From sequence record NC_104190.1: 64,000 nucleotides of DNA, one strand, 5' to 3'. Within the stretch, counting starts at the first letter, position 1. Every line of letters begins with the position of its first letter. Below, one piece after another: positions 6,480 through 56,718 of this stretch. A program made the position numbers and the translations under genes. Source of the stretch: Escherichia phage IME178. The notes under the pieces were generated by a model. It did not search any database. It saw only the letters and a program-made list of their open reading frames with translations, and had not been told where the DNA came from.

Positions 6480-6890
6480 ATGACTACTCCAACTCAGTGG
6501 ACTGATGAACTGTTCGAAAAAATGTCTTCCGAATACGTTGCTCGTATGGAACAATTCCCAGAGGATGAACGTCCTGGTGTTAGCATGGAAATTGTTAGCG
6601 AAATTGCCCAGGAAAATGGTGTAACTCCGAACGGTTTTCGTATGAAGCTAACTAAAGCAGGTTTGTATATCAAGAAAGCTGCTGGCTCTGCTTCTAAATC
6701 TAGTGCATCTACTGGAGAAAAAGCTTCTGGTGGTTCTCGCACTTCTAAAGCTCAAGCTCATGCCGACCTTCGTTCAGCATTCTCTGATGCTGGCCTAGCA
6801 CCAGATTTTCTGGATGATGCAATTATCGACAAACTGACCGGTAAAGCGGCTGCTCATCTGGCAGAAGCAATCCGAGCTATCACTAAGTAA
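6480..6890 (+). CDS. A2-like paralogue (small, apparently highly expressed protein)
   Basis: 136 aa with E. coli-optimal codons; shares W(T/N)(D/E)E, EIA(Q/K), KLT(K/S)A and a C-terminal KL(T/E) helix with the 135-aa A2-like ORF at 56311..56718. Confidence 0.6.
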   Translation: MTTPTQWTDELFEKMSSEYVARMEQFPEDERPGVSMEIVSEIAQENGVTPNGFRMKLTKAGLYIKKAAGSASKSSASTGEKASGGSRTSKAQAHADLRSAFSDAGLAPDFLDDAIIDKLTGKAAAHLAEAIRAITK

Positions 6891-7669: not shown

Positions 7670-8640
7670 ATGACTAATGTAAAAGACTTTATTAAACGCT
7701 GTCAAGAAGCATATTATCAAGGTATGTCTTTAATCTCTGACGAAGAATATGATCGTCTGATTAAAAGATTTCCATTAGAAGAAGAGATCGGGCCTAAGGG
7801 TGATATTCCACATCTGTATCGTATGTATTCTTTACAGAAAGTTTATTATAATCGTGGAGATAAACCTCCGTTCAACCCGTTAGGTCAGGTAGAAACTGAT
7901 AAGTTAGATGGTTGTGCGATTTCTCTGTTATATATTAATGGAGAATTTGTTCAAGCACTAACTCGTGGTAATGGTATTCTAGGGAATGATGTCACAAGCA
8001 ACGTAAGATTGCTGAATATCCCTAAAAAGATTTCCCAAAAAGTACCTACTCAAATCACTGGTGAAGTTCTAATTACAAAAGAAGTAGAAAATAAACGTAA
8101 CTTTGCCTCTGGTGCTATTAACCTCAAAGATAGCGATGATTTCGTACAACGTATTGGGGAAGGTGGTTTAATCTTCGTTGCATATGGTATCCAGTGTTCT
8201 GCTGAATCTGTAGGTATTACAGAAGCGTACTTAAAAGATATGCTCTGGCTGGAGAATGAGACTTCTTAACAGTTGTTAATGTGCGTTCCTTCTTTAAGTG
8301 GATTCCGACGGATGGTAAAGTTGTTCGTATTAATGACAACAACAAATTCTTCCGTGAAGGCTGGACTAATAAATTTCCTCGTGGAGCATTCGCTATTAAA
8401 GAAGATGAAGAAGGCGAGATTACAACTCTTACTAAAGTTGAATGGCAGGTAGGGGCTTCTGGTAAAGTAACTCCAGTTGGTTATTTCGAATCGGTAATTA
8501 TTGATGATGCTACAATTGTTAAGGCGACTCTTAATAACGTTGATTATATTAACTCTCTTGATCTAGAGATCGGTTGCCAGATTCGAGTAATTCGTGCTGG
8601 TGGTGTAATCCCGTGCATAGTAGAGCGAGTATACGATTAA
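7670..8640 (+). CDS. NAD-dependent DNA ligase, N-terminal subunit (adenylation + OB domains); frame break near 8260-8269
   Basis: Two track ORFs (7670..8269, 199 aa, KLDG KxDG motif; 8281..8640, 119 aa) in different frames separated by 11 bp; together about 322 codons. Confidence 0.6.
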
Positions 8641-8785: not shown

Positions 8786-8814
8786 TTGCTAAATGCTTAA
8801 ATACTTGCTATAAT
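8786..8814 (+). promoter_or_regulatory. sigma70-type early promoter (TTGCTA-17-TATAAT) with conserved leader
   Basis: Same family; leader AAATTGATAAGGAAG precedes ATG 8845. Confidence 0.5.
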
Positions 8815-8844
8815 ATTTATATAAATTGATAAGGAAGAAATTTG

Positions 8845-9615
8845 ATGAAAATCGAAATTCCAACACAATGTCCCTCTTGTGGTTCTAAGCTAGATCTTGT
8901 CAATGGACAATTATTCTGTCGTAATAAGTCCAACTGTCCAGCGCAATCAAGTAAGTTAATTGAGAACTTCTGTACAAAAATGAAGTTAAAGGGCTTTGGT
9001 CCAAAAACTATTGAGAAGCTGGAGCTGACGAAGATTTCAGAACTATTTTACCTAACCGAACAAGATTTGGTTAGAGCCGTGGGTAGCAAGGTTGCCGCTA
9101 AGTTAATTAGCGAATTAAATACTAAAGTTCGCGGAGACATTGACTTTGGTTCAGTTCTCGGTTCTTTAGGAATCCCTCTAATAGGAGAGGTTGCAGCAAA
9201 GAAATTATCCCAAAATTGCAACAGCTTCCATGATGTGAAGGCTGACGGCAAGGCTGGAGAAAACTATAAAGCCTGGCTAAATTCCCCACAAGGCAAGGAT
9301 GTTATCGAACTACCGTGGAAATTCTCAACTGGTGCTAAAGCTAAAACCGTCGTTACTGATGATTTAGTTGCCCAGCCAAATGGAATCGCGGTATGTATTA
9401 CCGGGTCTTTGCAAGACTTTGCAAATAGAACGGATGCAACAAACTATTTAGAAGGTCTAGGATATACGGTTAAGAAATCCGTTACCAAAGACGTCAAATA
9501 CCTGATCTGTGAGGATGAATCAAAACGTTCTTCCTCATCTTATAAGAAAGCCGAAACGAATGGGATAGAAATCCTGTCGATTAAAGAACTATTGGAGAAA
9601 AATAATAATGTCTAA
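8845..9615 (+). CDS. NAD-dependent DNA ligase, C-terminal subunit (Zn-finger, HhH, BRCT-like)
   Basis: CPSCGS...CRNKSNCPAQ zinc-finger motif; ORF track 8842..9615, ATG at 8845. Confidence 0.65.
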   Translation: MKIEIPTQCPSCGSKLDLVNGQLFCRNKSNCPAQSSKLIENFCTKMKLKGFGPKTIEKLELTKISELFYLTEQDLVRAVGSKVAAKLISELNTKVRGDIDFGSVLGSLGIPLIGEVAAKKLSQNCNSFHDVKADGKAGENYKAWLNSPQGKDVIELPWKFSTGAKAKTVVTDDLVAQPNGIAVCITGSLQDFANRTDATNYLEGLGYTVKKSVTKDVKYLICEDESKRSSSSYKKAETNGIEILSIKELLEKNNNV

Positions 9616-10375
9616 ACTGAACTGGAACGTAGAAGGTGTAACCGAGTCTCTGAAAGCAAAAGCCACTGCTCTGGGTGTTTCTGTAATCTCTCAAGAACAA
9701 GTAGCTGCTATCGCTGCTGAACTGGCTGCTGAAACTGGCAAAGATGTTACTGCTCGCTCTGTTGGCTCTAAACTGCGTAAAGAAGGTTTTGAAGTACAGA
9801 AAGCTAACGAAGTACAGAAATCCCCGTGGACTCCTGAGCAGGAAGCTGAACTGGTTGATTTCCTGAACGCTCATGCTGGTCAGTATACCTATGCTGAAAT
9901 CGCTGCTGCTGTAGCTGGTGGTCAGTTCGGTGCTAAGCAGGTACAGGGTAAGATTCTGAGCCTGGAAATGACCGCTTCTGTTAAGCCAACCGAAAAAGCT
10001 GCTGCTGTTCGTTCCTTCACTCCGGATGAAGAAACTGATTTTGTTAATCAGGTTGTTGCTGGTGCTACTATTGAAGCTATCGCTGCTCACTTCGGTCGTA
10101 ATATCAAGCAGATCCGTGGTAAAGCTCTGAGCCTGCTTCGTGAAGGTCGTATCGCTGCTATGCCGGTACAGGAAACTTCAAGTGCTAAAACTCGTGAAGA
10201 TTTGTTAGAAGGTCTGGATCTGGTTAACATGACTGTTGCTGAGATCGCTGAGAAAACTGGTAAGTCTGAGCGCGGTGTTAAATCTATGCTGTCTCGTCGT
10301 GGTCTGGTTGCTAAGGACTATGATGGTGCCGCTAAGCGTGCTAAACTGGATGCAAAAGCTGCGGCTGCTGAATAA
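9608..10375 (+). CDS. D5-like abundant early DNA-binding protein with four internal HTH-like repeats
   Basis: 255 aa, strongly E. coli-optimal codons; repeated module (W/F)TP(E/D)..E...V...(TYAEIAAAV/TIEAIAAHF)G....(Q/R)GK.LSL. Confidence 0.55.
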   Translation: MSKLNWNVEGVTESLKAKATALGVSVISQEQVAAIAAELAAETGKDVTARSVGSKLRKEGFEVQKANEVQKSPWTPEQEAELVDFLNAHAGQYTYAEIAAAVAGGQFGAKQVQGKILSLEMTASVKPTEKAAAVRSFTPDEETDFVNQVVAGATIEAIAAHFGRNIKQIRGKALSLLREGRIAAMPVQETSSAKTREDLLEGLDLVNMTVAEIAEKTGKSERGVKSMLSRRGLVAKDYDGAAKRAKLDAKAAAAE

Positions 10376-10392: not shown

Positions 10393-10425
10393 AAGGGGAG
10401 GGGGCTATGCTCCTTCCCCTTTTTG
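10393..10425 (+). terminator. rho-independent terminator (GGGGAGGG...CCTTCCCC + TTTT)
   Basis: GC-rich hairpin and T-run directly after the D5-like stop. Confidence 0.6.
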
Positions 10426-10457
10426 CATTTAGAAGGCACGAAAGCGTGCAAAGGAGA

Positions 10458-11930
10458 ATGACCTTGTTTAACGTGCAAGCTGTAGTGTTGAAGATGCTTC
10501 TAGCTTCTGAACAGAAGCAAATAGCATTGGAAACATTCTCAAAACTGCATAAAGATCATTTTAATGACGCTTTCTCCTCAATTTACCAAGCCGTCCAGAA
10601 TTATTATAAAAAATATAACACAATGCCGTCCATTGACGCACTGATGCTTGAAGCTAATAGGAACGCCCGCCTTTCTCAAGCTCTAGTCGTCTTAGCTAAC
10701 ACTCAAATTCCAGAAGTGAGCATGGAACAGGCACTTGAAGTCCTAGAGGCTGAATATACACAGGATTTATTCCTGAAGCTTCTAGAAACAGACGTGCTTC
10801 AAGATTTAACAATGCTGGATCAGGGAGAAATTCTCAACCGAGTTGCCTCCCTTCACTTAAAATTAGAAGAGAAAGTAACGAATACTGGAAAAGTATTCAA
10901 CGCAGATAACATGCGTATTTTCCAGAGAGAAGAAGATACCAAACTGAACCTAATCGCTCTTGGTATTTGTAATGAGTTTGACGCTCAAATTGGTTTAGCT
11001 CGCACAGAAACGTTACTGCTTGGTGGTTGGCGTGGTACTGGTAAATCCATTATCTGTTCAAACATACAGGTTCAGCAATATTTGAATGGAGATATTGCTC
11101 CATACTTCTCAATTGAGATGAAAGAACATGAAGTATTTAGACGTAATCTAGCCATGTTAGCTGGTGTATCCGCACTAGCAATGCGTAATAATACTCTAGA
11201 AGGTGCAGCTCTGCTGAGATTAGCCAGAACTAGAGCTAGAATGTTTAATGGCGGTGAAGAGCTTTTCGATAACTTCGTTAAACAGTACACAATGGCTAAG
11301 ATGAGTGATTTCTACGATATGGAGAGTAAACTAATAGAAGGGTATGAACTACATACTCCTATGATTATCGTTTATGACCCTGAACTGTCCATTACAACAG
11401 TTGATGTAGAATTAAATAAATTAGTTGCTAGATATGGTGATAAAGTTACAGTAGCTTTATTGGACTATATTAACCAAACCCGACTTCCAGACTCTAAAAC
11501 CATTGATATGTATGACTGGAAAGAACAGATGGTTGTTAGCTCGTCTTTCAAATCTATCTGCCAGAAACATAACGTGGCTGGCGTAGCTCCTTACCAGATC
11601 GATCAAGATGGTAGAACACGTATGTCAAAGGGTATTCTTGATTCCGCAGACATGGCTGCTAATCTTAATGCTGCAAAAGCTGATAATGGTCAAGGTGCTA
11701 TTATGTTTGACTTCGTTAAGACTCGTTCTTCTGATAGCGTGAAGTTTATGCCTAAAATGAACTGGGAAACCTTGCGGATGGATAACACTACCAACCTAGC
11801 GATGGAAGATATATCTCAAATGGAAGCTGAGTTCGTTATCCCTATTGAGAAGGATAAGCCGGCTCAACCTAAACGTGCTAAGAAAGACAAAACCGAAAAT
11901 TCAACAGGTGAACAGGCCAGCGATATATGA
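10458..11930 (+). CDS. DnaB-like replicative DNA helicase
   Basis: Walker A GGWRGTGKS and FSIEM motif; track ORF starts at 10407 inside the terminator, ATG 10458 follows RBS AAGGAGA. Confidence 0.65.
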   Translation: MTLFNVQAVVLKMLLASEQKQIALETFSKLHKDHFNDAFSSIYQAVQNYYKKYNTMPSIDALMLEANRNARLSQALVVLANTQIPEVSMEQALEVLEAEYTQDLFLKLLETDVLQDLTMLDQGEILNRVASLHLKLEEKVTNTGKVFNADNMRIFQREEDTKLNLIALGICNEFDAQIGLARTETLLLGGWRGTGKSIICSNIQVQQYLNGDIAPYFSIEMKEHEVFRRNLAMLAGVSALAMRNNTLEGAALLRLARTRARMFNGGEELFDNFVKQYTMAKMSDFYDMESKLIEGYELHTPMIIVYDPELSITTVDVELNKLVARYGDKVTVALLDYINQTRLPDSKTIDMYDWKEQMVVSSSFKSICQKHNVAGVAPYQIDQDGRTRMSKGILDSADMAANLNAAKADNGQGAIMFDFVKTRSSDSVKFMPKMNWETLRMDNTTNLAMEDISQMEAEFVIPIEKDKPAQPKRAKKDKTENSTGEQASDI

Positions 11931-12818
11931 GTAGAATAACAGAACTACTTGATCTGAAAGGCATTGAATATAAAGACACAGGTGGGGACATCCTCATCTG
12001 TTGTCTCAATCCAGATCATGACGATAAACACCCAAGTTTGCGTATTGATCCTGAAACAGGTATTATGCACTGCTTGAGTTGTGGCTTCGGTAAAGGTATA
12101 CCGAGCATTTACCATTATTTTAATGAGACTCAGTACCGACAGTCCCCAAGGCTATCGCAAGTACGTAAAAAGATTTCAGAGATTAGGAATGGGTCAACGA
12201 ATCTTGCAATTCCTGAATCTGCTTACCTTTTCGAAGGTGATTTCCGAGGTATAAGTTCTAAGACCTTGAAGAAATATTTTGCTTTCCAACACCAAGCAGA
12301 CTGGGAAGGCAGAATTGTATTCCCAATCACAGATGCTGTTGGACGCAATATCCTATTTTTGGGTCGTTCTATAAACAGTTCTGCCCCTCCTAAATACTTA
12401 GTAAAACCAAAACAAGTTTCACCACCAATTTTTCCTGTACGATATAATACCCCAATTCTTATTCTAGTTGAAGGTATCTTTGATATGCTGAATCTAGAGG
12501 ATAATGGTATAGACTATGCTTCTTGTTGCTTCGGTACACATCAGTTTACTTCAGATAACATTGCAGATAAGTTTAGTCCGTATATTATTGCTGGTGTTAA
12601 AGTTGTTGTTATCTTACTAGATAATGATGCTTCTGGTAATAAAGCTGCACAAGCACTGGCTAAGCTAATTCGTACAAAAAACGCGTTTAACACCTGTAGT
12701 TGCTAACTTTCTTCTGCCTGAAGGTAAAGACCCAGGTGACTTAAGTAAAGAAGAAATTGATATGTTAGCAAAACGTATTGAAATTTTAGTTGCTGAATCG
12801 CTTAAAGATTTGGTATAA
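11927..12818 (+). CDS. DnaG-like DNA primase (zinc-binding + TOPRIM); frame break at A6 run near 12676-12681
   Basis: CCLNPDHDDKHPSLRIDPETGIMHCLSCGFGKG zinc motif; track ORF ends 12706 but the +1 frame continues with LPEGKDPGDL (TOPRIM-like) to stop at 12818. Confidence 0.65.
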
Positions 12819-17897: not shown

Positions 17898-18182
17898 ATG
17901 CTTACAGAGCCTGATGCTCACCAATTATTGGTCGGTTCCTCATTCATTTTGAATGAATCAACAATAGTTGATAATCCAAATAAATTGTCTAATAGACAAC
18001 TGGCAGAATATCTAGGAATTTTAAGTCTACGAAATTATGCCGAATACAAGTTTACAAACGATCCTAGTTTGGACATACAATATGTTCCAGTATGGATACC
18101 ACGTTTAGTAATCGACACTAACCCACTAATCGCAATTAACAAATCGAAATTAATCTTTAAAGAGGAAATAAAATATGGCTAA
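17898..18182 (+). CDS. hypothetical protein
   Basis: 94-aa ORF between the promoters and the SSB-like gene; weak RBS. Confidence 0.35.
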   Translation: MLTEPDAHQLLVGSSFILNESTIVDNPNKLSNRQLAEYLGILSLRNYAEYKFTNDPSLDIQYVPVWIPRLVIDTNPLIAINKSKLIFKEEIKYG

Positions 18183-18948
18183 GTCTTGGGGCGAAACTAC
18201 TGGCGGTTCTAACGATAAAATCGAATTCCTGAAGTTCAACAACGGTATCACTCGTGTTCGTATCGTTTCTGGTGTTCTTCCACGTTATGTCTATTGGCTG
18301 ACTAATAAAGAGGGTAATGTAGCTCCTTTCGAATGTCTCCGTTTTAACCGTGACAAAGAGAGCTTTGTTCGTGGTAAAGCTGATCCGGTTCATGAGATGG
18401 GCTTTTTCGAGAAAGAGCTGGATAAAGACGGTAATCGTGTTCCGCTGAAACCGAAGAAAAACTATATCGCTTTTGTTATCGACCGTTCTGATAACAAACT
18501 GAAAGTAATGGAAGTCAAGGCTACTATTCTGAAAGGCATCCAGTCTATCATGAAGCAGTTGAATCTGGCAACTCCGTTTGATATTGATATTTCTATCGAG
18601 AAAAAAGGTAAAGGTTTCGATACTGAGTATGATGTACAGCAGATTGCTGCTATGCAGTTCCAGATTAAGCTGCAAGATCCCAACAGTGCAGAATCTAAGC
18701 AATACGCTGCAGATGTAGATCTGATCGGTGAAGCTATGTGTGATGGAGATGGCGACATCATTAAGTTCGAAAAAGTTCCTTCTCTGGAACAAACTTATCC
18801 GGTTCCTACCTATGAAGAGCAGAAAGAAGCAATTCAAGCCTTCATGGAGGGTCGTGAGAATAAAGATGATGATGCCAAATCTGGTAATAGCAATGCAGGC
18901 TCCCAGAAAGGTATTGACACAGAAGCTGCAAGCGATCTGGACGACTAA
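18175..18948 (+). CDS. putative single-stranded DNA-binding protein (acidic C-terminal tail)
   Basis: 257 aa with optimal codons; C-terminus DTEAASDLDD is acidic as in phage SSBs; strong terminator follows. Confidence 0.5.
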   Translation: MAKSWGETTGGSNDKIEFLKFNNGITRVRIVSGVLPRYVYWLTNKEGNVAPFECLRFNRDKESFVRGKADPVHEMGFFEKELDKDGNRVPLKPKKNYIAFVIDRSDNKLKVMEVKATILKGIQSIMKQLNLATPFDIDISIEKKGKGFDTEYDVQQIAAMQFQIKLQDPNSAESKQYAADVDLIGEAMCDGDGDIIKFEKVPSLEQTYPVPTYEEQKEAIQAFMEGRENKDDDAKSGNSNAGSQKGIDTEAASDLDD

Positions 18949-38586: not shown

Positions 38587-38991
38587 TTACGCTTTTGAGC
38601 TACGAAAAGTGTCTAAGTGGAACACTGTCTGGTTGATCCAAGAATCAAACGCAGCAGAGTTCTGCATGAGCATTACAGCATTGTCGCGGCTAAAAGGAAC
38701 TTCAGTAGCAGGATCAGCATCTGTTTCAATCAGCATCAGTTTTTCAACGTCACCTACAGTCAAACCAGTCCAACCTTTAATAGCTGCGTCAACAAATGCT
38801 TCAATGAACTTATCATCATCCTGGACTTGCATCAGCGTACCATTAACCCATTCATCACGTTTAGCAGAAGAAATAACACGTTTAGAGGTAGCACGAGACA
38901 TATAGTTAAGTTCTAGTTTAAAGTTCGGCATACCTGGGTAGGAAAGAGTAATAGTACGAGTATCAAGAGTAATATCTTTTAAATTAATCAT
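38587..38991 (-). CDS. tail assembly chaperone (G-like)
   Basis: 134-aa ORF immediately upstream of the tape-measure operon position. Confidence 0.55.
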   Translation of the reverse strand: MINLKDITLDTRTITLSYPGMPNFKLELNYMSRATSKRVISSAKRDEWVNGTLMQVQDDDKFIEAFVDAAIKGWTGLTVGDVEKLMLIETDADPATEVPFSRDNAVMLMQNSAAFDSWINQTVFHLDTFRSSKA

Positions 38992-43142: not shown

Positions 43143-44519
43143 TTAAGATGCAGCGTAAGTACCGGATACAACGCCGTTATTAAAGTAACGTTGCAGGTTA
43201 ACACGCTGGGTAACGTAGTACGCGTCACGCTGTTTACCAGCTTGGCGCTCACGTTCAACAGTAACAGCACGCTGACGCGGCATTACAAAGTTATCTTTAT
43301 AAACGATAACTGCGAATTCTGCGGAAGCAGCTTTAGCAGGGAAGTATTCAGAAACTACAACTGGCAGACCATAAATACGACCAACCTGACCTTGCAGTTT
43401 AACAGCATCGTTACCAACCTGTGCAACATCCTGCCATTCTTCATCTTCCAGCAGATCGTAATAAGCATCCATAGATACGATCAGTACTAGTTTGCTAAGT
43501 TTCAGACCATGACGGCCCAGTTTACGACGCAGTTTAGAAATAGTTTTAGCAGTTACTAATACAGAACCATCAGCTTTAGCCTCGGTAACAACCTTAGCAC
43601 TATCTTCGCTAGCAAGGGTCAGCAGACCTTTCGGCTTACCAGAACCATCACCAGTCATGAAAGCTTCTTCGATAGAAACAGCGTGTGCTTCAATCAGGCG
43701 TTTACGCAGCAGAGGCAGCAGAGAGAAGATTGCATCTTCTTCAGTTTCATCAGTAATGAAGGACTTAGCAGCTAATTTGTAAGTACTGAAATGAATTTCA
43801 GTCAGAGCACCTTTAACTTCTTCACCAGTAGTTGCATCAGTACCATAAGTAGAAGCAGCAACCCAAGTAGCTTTACCAGCATCTGGTTCAACTAGCATAG
43901 TAAGAATCTTACTAGACATCGGCAATTCTTCGAACAGTGCACCAACTACCAGCTCTTTCTGCAGATCACGAATGATACGCTGGGAGAAAATAGTTTCATA
44001 GTTTTCACTAGAAACCTGAACTGAAGAAGAGGTGTTTACAGCTTTAAGGTGATTCTGACCATGTTCAGTTTCGAATACGCCTTTTTCCATTACATAAGAT
44101 AGCAGAACTAGTTTTTCAACTTCATCTTCGAAAGCTTCCTGAGTACCATACAGTGCTTTAGCTACGCTATCACCGACGAAGGAACGTCCTTCACGAGCTG
44201 CCAGTAGAGATTTGATTTCGTCCTGAAGACCAACAATAGTTTCCTGTTGTTTTTCTACAGTCTGTGCAAACAGTTCTGCGCTCTTTTTAGATTTTTCATC
44301 CAGGGATTTAACCAGTTCCAGAGCTTCTTCTAGCTTCTGACGATCTTCGCCAACTGCTTTAGAAACCAGATCATTCATACGAGCCAGTTCTTTTTCTTCC
44401 TGCTCTTTACGCATACGTTCAGCTTCAGCAGCTTTCTGAGCAGCGGTCAGACCTTCCAGAGATTTAGCCAGATCACCCAGACCAAGTTCTTCTTTCAGCT
44501 TATTAATATCAATAGTCAT
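43143..44519 (-). CDS. major capsid protein (pb8-like) with N-terminal scaffolding delta domain
   Basis: 458 aa (the length of T5 pb8); coiled-coil N-terminal ~150 aa, HK97-fold-like remainder; strongly optimal codons. Confidence 0.85.
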   Translation of the reverse strand: MTIDINKLKEELGLGDLAKSLEGLTAAQKAAEAERMRKEQEEKELARMNDLVSKAVGEDRQKLEEALELVKSLDEKSKKSAELFAQTVEKQQETIVGLQDEIKSLLAAREGRSFVGDSVAKALYGTQEAFEDEVEKLVLLSYVMEKGVFETEHGQNHLKAVNTSSSVQVSSENYETIFSQRIIRDLQKELVVGALFEELPMSSKILTMLVEPDAGKATWVAASTYGTDATTGEEVKGALTEIHFSTYKLAAKSFITDETEEDAIFSLLPLLRKRLIEAHAVSIEEAFMTGDGSGKPKGLLTLASEDSAKVVTEAKADGSVLVTAKTISKLRRKLGRHGLKLSKLVLIVSMDAYYDLLEDEEWQDVAQVGNDAVKLQGQVGRIYGLPVVVSEYFPAKAASAEFAVIVYKDNFVMPRQRAVTVERERQAGKQRDAYYVTQRVNLQRYFNNGVVSGTYAAS

Positions 44520-56310: not shown

Positions 56311-56718
56311 TTATTCGCCTGCGGCTTGTTTTACTTCATCAGCAACGCCTAACAATTGCGCTACTGCGTCCAGCGTTTCAAGTTTTGCACTTTCAAGGCT
56401 TGCCAGATCATCGGCGTCTTTGATAATACCGGAATCGATAGCGTGTTTTGCAATTACTCGCACATAGTGAGCTTTACGCACAGAGCTACCGCCGCCAACT
56501 TTACGCGGCTTATCGCTTTTTTGATAGGCTTTTGCACTGGTCAATTTTGAGCGAACGGATACAGGGGAAGCCGCGCCTACTGCTTTTGCAATCTCTTTCA
56601 GGCCGTCGCTATTTGCGAAATCTAAACCGTTTTCATTGATTAACTGCTGGTACATAGAAACAGCTTTCTGAGTGTTTTCTTCGTTCCATGCGAATTTTGC
56701 GGTTTTAGCGTTAGTCAT
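56311..56718 (-). CDS. A2: A2-like pre-early DNA-binding protein
   Basis: 135 aa, adjacent to A1 as in T5; paralogous to the ORF at 6480..6890. Confidence 0.55.
   Translation of the reverse strand: MTNAKTAKFAWNEENTQKAVSMYQQLINENGLDFANSDGLKEIAKAVGAASPVSVRSKLTSAKAYQKSDKPRKVGGGSSVRKAHYVRVIAKHAIDSGIIKDADDLASLESAKLETLDAVAQLLGVADEVKQAAGE

What the first reader, a model, noticed from the sequence alone, without database searches (positions are those of the whole stretch)
9608..10375. D5-like protein is built from four tandem HTH-like repeats
The 255-aa protein contains four ~45-residue repeats of a helix-turn-helix-like module ending in a basic segment (GK.LSL / GVKSMLSRRG), with strongly host-optimal codons indicating very high expression. 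A repeat architecture could explain cooperative, sequence-nonspecific duplex DNA coating.
Basis: seen in the sequence. Interest (0 to 1): 0.4.

Follow-up and report, generated by a model that had tools for sequence, protein, structure and literature searches.

The report
T5 D5: four-HTH-repeat DNA binder
This gene is the long-known, very highly expressed double-stranded-DNA-binding protein D5 of phage T5, and it is built from four tandem copies of a small three-helix DNA-binding module, which is a useful anatomical detail but not a new kind of protein.

The parts
8786..8814 (+). Sigma-70-type early promoter of the ligB-D5 transcription unit (TTGCTA-17-TATAAT with an extended-10 TG)
   Evidence: Scan, 10/12 match. 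It coincides with the promoter annotated in AKFV33 (locus 2287-2316 = window 8786-8815). T5 annotates promoters P-K28b and P-K28a between ligA and ligB.
8842..9615 (+). NAD-dependent DNA ligase subunit B, the upstream gene of the same unit; its last 8 nt overlap the D5 start (ATGTCTAA)
   Evidence: ORF list and sequence; annotation in AKFV33 and T5.
9608..10375 (+). D5 coding sequence, 255 aa plus stop; GGAG Shine-Dalgarno at 9594-9597
   Evidence: phrog_323 'transcriptional regulator, D5-like', E=1.4e-71. 254/255 identical to T5 YP_006946.1.
9611..9814 (+). Repeat unit R1 (aa 2-69): W6, helices 11-22, 29-43 and 49-58; basic recognition helix ARSVGSKLRK (nt 9752-9781)
   Evidence: hhalign register. 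AF2 DSSP. Helix 3 conservation 0.86, charge +4. HTH_33 and Tc3-type Pfam hits in 6-7 of 24 members.
9815..10006 (+). Repeat unit R2 (aa 70-133): W74, helices 76-88, 95-101 and 109-118; recognition helix AKQVQGKILS (nt 9932-9961); linker VKPTEK
   Evidence: Myb_DNA-bind_6 in 17 of 24 members. R2-R3 hhalign P=2.7e-9.
10007..10183 (+). Repeat unit R3 (aa 134-192): F137, helices 139-150, 155-162 and 166-178; recognition helix IKQIRGKALSLLR (nt 10103-10141); linker with invariant P186
   Evidence: HTH_23 in 14 of 24 members. Best match to the GcrA DBD profile (prob 92%, z=10.4).
10184..10324 (+). Repeat unit R4 (aa 193-239), degenerate: the helix-1 region 197-207 is mostly non-helical in the model; HTH helices 210-217 and 221-231; recognition helix ERGVKSMLSRR (nt 10268-10300)
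   Evidence: Sigma70_r4_2 at 28.8 bits against a cutoff of 25.7, found in 19 of 24 members.
10325..10372 (+). Conserved basic C-terminal helix (aa 240-254, GAAKRAKLDAKAAAA), preceded by the conserved DYDG motif; five-unit relatives have a fifth HTH unit in this position
   Evidence: AF2. D237, G240 and K246 are invariant or nearly so. Five-unit alignment A7.
10393..10426 (+). Intrinsic terminator closing the ligB-D5 unit (13-bp stem with 8 GC pairs, then a T-run)
   Evidence: Scan; a terminator is annotated at the same place in AKFV33.

Best explanation
The gene encodes phage T5 protein D5, an abundant early protein that binds double-stranded DNA. One polypeptide carries four tandem tri-helical helix-turn-helix modules that arose by ancient internal duplication. 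Each has a basic third helix and, in R2-R4, an acidic first helix. The modules are joined by short conserved linkers and followed by a basic C-terminal helix.

Inferred mechanism. Each module places its basic helix 3 in a major groove, as the structurally closest solved domain, GcrA-DBD, does as a monomer on a 7-bp site. One D5 monomer would then contact several successive grooves, perhaps 20-30 bp, with high avidity. Because it is made in bulk, it would load along replicating T5 DNA as an architectural or coating protein. That occupancy would be what makes it necessary for replication, for shut-off of early genes and for turn-on of late genes.

Shown here: identity with D5, the four-unit anatomy, where conservation and charge sit, the expression signals and the codon bias. 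Inferred: groove insertion by all four units, the footprint size, coating, and the link to the transcriptional switch.
For: Identity: 254/255 to T5 D5, annotated 'DNA-binding protein; required for DNA replication and late transcription'.

Repeats: profile self-alignment of 153 columns, P=8e-11, score 77 against a permutation maximum of 24. R2-R3 P=2.7e-9. The R3 profile hits 2-4 stretches per D5-length protein.

Fold: AF2 pLDDT 92 with three-helix units in R1-R3, an HTH in R4 and a C-terminal helix; pTM 0.50, as expected for beads on a string. Only local HTH matches in the PDB.

HTH nature of each unit: HTH_33, Myb_DNA-bind_6, HTH_23 and Sigma70_r4_2 recur across 24 members per unit.

DNA-contact surface: helix 3 is the most conserved element in every unit (0.72-0.86 against 0.63 overall) and is basic across the family (+2 to +3.9); helix 1 of R2-R4 is acidic.

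Bulk expression: CAI 0.715, rank 1 of 60, grouped with capsid, SSB and D3-type DNA-binding proteins; promoter and terminator; abundance in a virion preparation.

Monomer with DNA-binding HTH: bioRxiv 10.64898/2026.07.11.737809.

Repeat number varies between four and five in genes at a comparable position, next to the helicase-primase module.
Against: No DNA-binding measurement could be made or read here. The classical biochemistry (cooperative, dsDNA-preferring binding) is recalled from memory, and the papers are not in the library.

The protein has net charge 0 (34 K+R, 34 D+E), unlike typical histone-like coating proteins.

The four units have diverged strongly from one another, yet each is well conserved across phages. 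That pattern fits four distinct reading heads for a composite specific site at least as well as it fits non-specific coating.

R4 lacks a clear first helix, and its similarity to the other units is weak (P 4e-3 to 7e-5).

Confidence: 0.6

Rival explanations
1. D5 is a sequence-specific transcription factor. The four diverged HTH units act as four different reading heads that together recognise a long composite site at T5 late (or early) promoters, as Myb R2R3, paired/Tc3 bipartite domains or the archaeal Cbp proteins do. The early-to-late switch would then be a direct promoter-level effect.
For: Each unit best resembles a different HTH family, and each is separately conserved from E. coli phages to Vibrio phages. 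Databases label the family 'transcription factor D5', 'late gene transcription factor' and 'D5-like transcriptional regulator'. GcrA-DBD, the closest structure, is a sequence-specific reader. The mechanism of T5 class switching is unknown (abstract of PMC7472727).
Against: D5 has the most extreme codon adaptation in the window, in the company of capsid and SSB, and its homologue was highly abundant in a virion preparation. That points to stoichiometric rather than regulatory amounts. D5 binds an unrelated retron msDNA stem-loop, which suggests relaxed specificity. Classical reports (from memory) describe non-specific cooperative dsDNA binding. The database names are inherited from phenotype, not from a demonstrated site.
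Confidence: 0.2
2. D5 works mainly through RNA polymerase rather than DNA. R4 mimics sigma-70 region 4, or the units dock on polymerase or the replisome, so that D5 is a sigma-like or appropriator-type factor.
For: R4 is the only unit to pass a Pfam threshold, and the family is Sigma70_r4_2 (28.8 bits against 25.7; 19 of 24 members). Sigma70_r3 and Sigma70_r4 give weak hits. GcrA is an RNAP-sigma70-associated factor.
Against: There is no match to sigma region 2. The Sigma70_r4_2 match covers only the generic HTH part of the model (positions 23-49 of 54). D5 has no cysteine, so it cannot carry GcrA's CCCH sigma-interaction domain. All T5 gene classes are transcribed by the sigma-70 holoenzyme (abstract of PMC7472727), and searches of that paper's text for D5 phrases found nothing.
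Confidence: 0.08
3. The four units are not true repeats but four unrelated HTH domains fused together. The apparent periodicity would then be convergence on the generic HTH pattern plus Ala-rich helical composition.
For: On the single sequence only R2-R3 is significant. R1-R2 as profiles gives only P=0.045, and R2-R4 aligns only 10 columns. Each unit prefers a different Pfam family. There is no DNA-level repeat.
Against: The off-diagonal alignment runs in register through three consecutive units, including the linkers and the N-terminal aromatic residue (W6, W74, F137), and scores about 20 sd above column-permuted controls that keep composition. Relatives have five much more regular units in the same order. 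Unit number varies among genes at a comparable position, as expected for duplication and loss.
Confidence: 0.1

Closest known systems
Phage T5 D5 protein (T5.118, YP_006946.1; phrog_323)
   Same: 254/255 identical, same length, same position between ligB and the D6 helicase, with promoter and terminator in corresponding positions.
   Different: One substitution only (S25 here, D25 in T5). The window comes from a closer relative of Salmonella phage SB9 and Escherichia phage AKFV33.
GcrA DNA-binding domain (Caulobacter crescentus, PDB 5yiu; Pfam PF07750)
   Different: GcrA has one such domain plus a CCCH zinc-finger sigma-70-interaction domain. D5 has four and no cysteine. The Pfam GcrA model matches 1 of 96 D5 unit sequences, at E=0.21. 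GcrA reads methylated GANTC sites; nothing like that is known for D5.
Myb/SANT repeat proteins (c-Myb R1-R3, CDC5/Cef1, SNAPC4, Reb1, Rap1, Timeless DBD)
   Different: All Myb hits on D5 itself are below Pfam thresholds. Only the first of the three regularly spaced aromatic residues is kept. The D5 period is longer (59-68 aa) because of its conserved linkers.
Archaeal CRISPR-repeat-binding protein (PDB 2lvs) and bipartite transposase HTH domains (Tc3, Mos1)
   Different: They have two units, not four; no significant sequence similarity to D5; they are sequence-specific binders.

Membership tests
T5 D5 family (phrog_323, Demerecviridae D5 proteins) | Full-length sequence match to the family profile or the type protein | tested here: met
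   phrog_323 E=1.4e-71 over residues 1-253; 254/255 identity to T5 YP_006946.1.
T5 D5 family (phrog_323, Demerecviridae D5 proteins) | Position in the early replication module, between NAD-ligase subunit B and the DnaB-like helicase D6 | tested here: met
   ORF order in the window matches AKFV33 and T5. Distant metagenomic relatives also lie next to the helicase-primase module.
T5 D5 family (phrog_323, Demerecviridae D5 proteins) | Binds double-stranded DNA; required for replication and late transcription | not testable with these tools
   Taken from the T5 RefSeq annotation and the title of McCorquodale et al. 1979 (reference seen). The paper itself is not held.
GcrA family (Pfam PF07750) | Match to the family HMM above the gathering score | tested here: not met
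   Not listed for the whole protein at E<=10. 1 of 96 unit sequences matches, at E=0.21.
GcrA family (Pfam PF07750) | C-terminal CCCH zinc-finger sigma-70-interaction domain | tested here: not met
   D5 contains no cysteine (composition). The domain is described in PMC5887438.
GcrA family (Pfam PF07750) | Fold of the N-terminal DNA-binding domain | tested here: met
Myb/SANT repeat family (PF00249, PF13921) | Match above the gathering score | tested here: not met
   Window R2: Myb_DNA-binding 17.6 bits against 24.4. Best E among 24 R2 sequences is 4.8e-4 for Myb_DNA-bind_6, and the window sequence scores 12.0 bits against 22.9.
Myb/SANT repeat family (PF00249, PF13921) | Three regularly spaced tryptophans or aromatics per repeat (spacing about 18-19 residues; criterion recalled from memory) | tested here: not met
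   Read from the sequence: only the first is kept (W6, W74, F137). R2 has Y93 at +19, but no aromatic at the third position (V112/I116).
Sigma-70 family | Region 4 HTH together with regions 2 and 3 | tested here: not met
   R4 passes Sigma70_r4_2 (28.8 against 25.7), but only over model positions 23-49. Sigma70_r3 is below threshold and no region 2 hit is listed.
Tandem HTH-repeat DNA-binding proteins (architectural class, not a curated family) | At least two homologous tri-helical HTH units in tandem on one chain | tested here: met

The most novel reading that the evidence does not exclude
D5 is the four-unit representative of an unrecognised phage class of variable-copy (four or five) GcrA/Myb-like HTH-repeat proteins. 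These would serve as phage chromatin: monomers lay four recognition helices along successive grooves, coat replicating T5-type genomes, and by their occupancy set the early-to-late transcription switch. The same repeated HTH surface would be what type IX retrons have evolved to sense.
Probability: 0.25. Interest if true: 0.5.

Novelty: already known. Interest (0 to 1): 0.3.

Why it matters
How T5 switches from early to late transcription is still unexplained, and D5 is one of the few genes known to be required. In 2026 D5 was also reported as the trigger of a type IX retron. A precise domain map turns 'DNA-binding protein' into defined truncations and point mutants: four units, the location of each recognition helix, the conserved linkers and the C-terminal helix. 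It also gives a structural template (GcrA-DBD on DNA) for modelling. It further suggests that the preprint's 'a helix-turn-helix motif' is one of four, which bears on which surface the retron senses. This refines a known protein; it is not a discovery of a new system.

Tried and rejected
- **Block-permutation control.** A 7-column block permutation for hhalign gave scores above the observed value (mean 99). It is invalid, because each block still matches its own copy in the query, so it was discarded. Column permutation and the reversed template were used instead.
- **afdb50.** The library was not available; BFVD was used instead. It returned only a Vibrio-phage D5 at high TM and low-TM multi-HTH proteins.
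- **PDB sequence search.** The whole protein found nothing usable. The per-unit profiles gave only weak HTH hits, two of them to designed proteins, which are not evidence of homology.
- **DRT4 trigger.** The DRT4 'phage-encoded DNA-binding protein' is ORF55, not D5.
- **Classical D5 papers and Davison's review.** Not held in the library. No D5 statements were found in PMC7472727, PMC3632103, PMC11879866 or PMC12916289.
- **The search for related loci with P0241 alone.** It found nothing; the alignment A7 was needed.
- **Recent DNA-level duplication.** Rejected: only 21-30-nt echoes at 64-79% identity.
- **Module superposition.** The four units could not be superimposed on each other because model coordinates are not exposed.

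Full report
**What is there.** The window is a T5-like phage (Tequintavirus). The 2 kb around the finding is 99.0% identical to Salmonella phage SB9 and 98.8% to Escherichia phage AKFV33. The ORF at 9608..10375 (+) is exactly as described, 255 aa. It matches phrog_323, 'transcriptional regulator, D5-like', at E=1.4e-71. It is 254/255 identical to the type protein T5 D5 (T5.118, YP_006946.1), differing only at residue 25. The T5 RefSeq note reads 'DNA-binding protein; required for DNA replication and late transcription; also is involved in shutoff of expression of ...'. So 'D5-like' is an understatement: this is D5.

**Testing the repeat on the single sequence.** On the window protein alone the claim is only partly demonstrable. 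Smith-Waterman scores against 1000 shuffles are significant for R2-R3 (z=7.9), marginal for R1-R4 (z=3.2), R2-R4 and R3-R4 (about 2.7), and at chance for R1-R2 and R1-R3.

**Testing the repeat on the family profile.** I built a 69-sequence family alignment spanning 50-80% identity. I then ran hhalign of the profile against itself with alternative alignments and no boundaries of my own. The first off-diagonal alignment pairs residues 70-225 with 2-170 over 153 columns (P=8e-11, probability 97%). That is the whole protein shifted by one unit, in register through three consecutive units and their linkers. Shifts by two units (136-217 vs 5-102, P=1.3e-3) and three units (205-236 vs 27-64, P=8e-4) follow. 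Against 150 column-permuted templates, which keep composition and per-column conservation, the null is 15.4 ± 3.0 with a maximum of 24.2. The observed scores are 77.0, 30.7 and 32.0. A block-permutation control I also ran is invalid, because the blocks match themselves, and I disregard it.

**Independent check with one unit.** A profile of the R3 unit alone, searched against 1.84 billion representative proteins, matches 2-4 separate stretches inside most D5-length proteins.

**Register.** The units are R1 2-69, R2 70-133, R3 134-192 and R4 193-255. Each opens with an aromatic residue (W6, W74, F137) followed by an acidic stretch. The period is therefore 59-68 residues. The '~45 residues' of the finding describes only the folded core.

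**Structure.** AlphaFold2 on the family alignment gives mean pLDDT 92 but pTM 0.50. The helices are 11-22/29-43/49-58, 76-88/95-101/109-118, 139-150/155-162/166-178, (205-207)/210-217/221-231, and a C-terminal helix 240-254. That is three clean three-helix units and a fourth in which only the helix-turn-helix is regular. High local and low global confidence is what independently folding beads on a string would give.

**What each unit is.** Scanning 24 family members per unit against Pfam, each unit recurs on a different member of the HTH clan:
- R1: HTH_33 and Tc3-type, 6-7 of 24.
- R2: Myb_DNA-bind_6, 17 of 24.
- R3: HTH_23, 14 of 24.
- R4: Sigma70_r4_2, 19 of 24.

Sigma70_r4_2 is the only Pfam family to pass its curated threshold on the window protein, at 28.8 bits against 25.7. 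Unit profiles against PDB sequences give weak hits of the same kind: Mos1, Timeless, c-Myb, SNAPC4, TraR and RcsB.

**Where selection acts.** In every unit helix 3 is the most conserved element: 0.86, 0.86, 0.72 and 0.81, against 0.63 for the whole protein. It is also basic across the family, with mean net charge +3.9, +2.0, +3.2 and +3.2. Helix 1 of R2-R4 is acidic, at -3 to -4. The invariant residues cluster there: R50, K55, L56 and R57; Q113, G114, K115 and L117; G171 and K172; G223, L228 and R231. All four units therefore look like working DNA-contact modules, not decayed relics. The linkers carry conserved residues of their own (V125, P186, Q188), and so does the C-terminal DYDG-AAKRAKLD segment.

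**Evolution.** There is no DNA-level repeat, only 21-30-nt echoes at 64-79% identity, so the duplication is ancient. All 69 aligned family members are 241-267 aa long. By tblastn the family is confined to T5-like phages of Escherichia, Salmonella, Klebsiella, Proteus, Vibrio, Aeromonas and Pectobacterium.

The module search also uncovered distant relatives of 283-291 aa with five, much more regular, units. In one metagenomic viral contig (L004) a five-unit gene lies immediately upstream of the helicase-primase-polymerase module, with the ligase gene nearby on the opposite strand. A four-unit gene sits in the corresponding position on a 116-kb contig (L009). In both, a small additional HTH ORF lies between D5 and the helicase. 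Variable copy number at a comparable position is the behaviour of a true repeat protein.

The same profile retrieves long tandem arrays elsewhere: Myb-type arrays that look eukaryotic by sequence (my reading; no organism information was returned), and HTH_7/HTH_23-type arrays with up to 10-11 units. The unit therefore belongs to the broad Myb/SANT, HTH_23 and GcrA-like group of tri-helical HTH domains.

**Expression.** D5 is the second gene of a two-gene unit. A sigma-70-type promoter lies at 8786-8814 (TTGCTA-17-TATAAT with TG), coincident with the promoter annotated in AKFV33. T5 annotates P-K28b and P-K28a in the same ligA-ligB interval. Then come ligB (8842-9615), D5 overlapping ligB by 8 nt with a GGAG 10 nt upstream of its ATG, and a 13-bp-stem intrinsic terminator at 10393-10421.

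CAI is 0.715, the highest of 60 ORFs (median 0.26, z=3.8). D5 has 47% GC in a 39% GC window (the w table was entered from memory of Sharp & Li 1987). The next-ranked genes are the major head protein, SSB, two D3-type DNA-binding proteins and the tail assembly chaperone. All of these are proteins needed in bulk. A D5 homologue was among the most abundant proteins by spectral count in a purified T5-like virion preparation, although D5 is not a known T5 virion component (PMC8624392).

**Mechanism.** The best-supported reading is this. A D5 monomer (26 kDa by mass photometry, bioRxiv 10.64898/2026.07.11.737809) presents four basic recognition helices, each able to enter a major groove. That gives multivalent, high-avidity binding over perhaps 20-30 bp. 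Bulk synthesis then lets it load along replicating phage DNA. Its requirement for replication, early shut-off and late turn-on would follow from that occupancy.

The anatomy, the conservation pattern and the expression signals are shown. Groove insertion by all four units, the footprint, coating and the link to the transcriptional switch are inferred. Repetition explains avidity. Cooperativity needs protein-protein contacts, for which the acidic helix-1 faces and the conserved C-terminal helix are candidates, and non-specificity is a property of the recognition helices. The protein's net charge of zero and the strong divergence between units keep a sequence-specific, composite-site transcription-factor model alive. 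I give that about 0.2.

**Novelty.** The protein has been known since the 1970s. [quoted passage not shown] In the searchable literature I found no explicit description of the four-fold tandem repeat, its register, the GcrA-DBD resemblance or the five-unit relatives. This is therefore an incremental anatomical annotation of a known protein: ordinary in kind, and modestly useful for designing truncations and for interpreting the retron result.

Noticed in passing
window 7670-8640 (around 8261): NAD-ligase subunit A is one 323-aa CDS in AKFV33 and T5, but here it is split into two ORFs (7670..8269 and 8281..8640) by a 1-nt deletion in a short A-run (GAGAAC to GAG-AC). This is either a sequencing error or a real frameshift or pseudogene.
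   Followed up: partly
window 11927-12817 (around 12676): The primase ORF is 259 aa here and 296 aa in AKFV33 and T5. A 1-nt insertion in an A-run relative to AKFV33 truncates it. This is the second homopolymer-type frameshift within 5 kb, which suggests sequence-quality problems in the source assembly.
   Followed up: partly
window 10407-11930: The mechanical ORF start of the D6 helicase (ATG 10407, also annotated that way in AKFV33) lies inside the D5 terminator hairpin (10393-10421). A later ATG near 10459, preceded by AAAGGAGA, looks like the more plausible start; the T5 RefSeq CDS is also shorter (1509 nt against 1524 nt).
   Followed up: no
window 6480-6890 (+) and 56311-56718 (-): There are two paralogous D3-type 'DNA binding protein' genes (both phrog_1725, E about 1e-50), both with high CAI (0.53 and 0.47). 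The retron preprint also found escape mutations in D3.
   Followed up: partly
window 18175-18948 (+), 43143-44519 (-), 38587-38991 (-): The other strongly codon-adapted genes are SSB (D11; CAI 0.54), the major head protein (0.63) and the tail assembly chaperone (0.45). Codon adaptation in this 39% GC phage tracks proteins needed in bulk.
   Followed up: partly
L009 7330-8109 and L004 6098-6652: In distant T5-like metagenomic phages a small extra ORF lies between D5 and the helicase. It appears to contain a single HTH unit of the same type (for example ...MTLAEIAKLTLRSSSSIRSHLLKRNIP...). No such ORF exists in the window.
   Followed up: no
literature: bioRxiv 10.64898/2026.07.11.737809, applied to window D5 residues 53, 74, 149, 232: The retron-escape T5 mutant reportedly carries G53D (R1 recognition helix), W74* (start of R2), V149I (R3 helix 1) and G232D (just after the R4 recognition helix) in D5. 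A nonsense codon after unit 1 in a gene described as required for replication is odd. It may reflect a mixed population, or it may mean D5 is dispensable under those conditions.
   Followed up: no
literature: PMC8624392 (Yersinia phage phiR2-01 Gp110, the D5 homologue): The D5 homologue was among the major proteins by spectral count in a purified virion preparation, although D5 is not a known T5 virion component. It could be carried along on DNA or co-purified because of its abundance.
   Followed up: no
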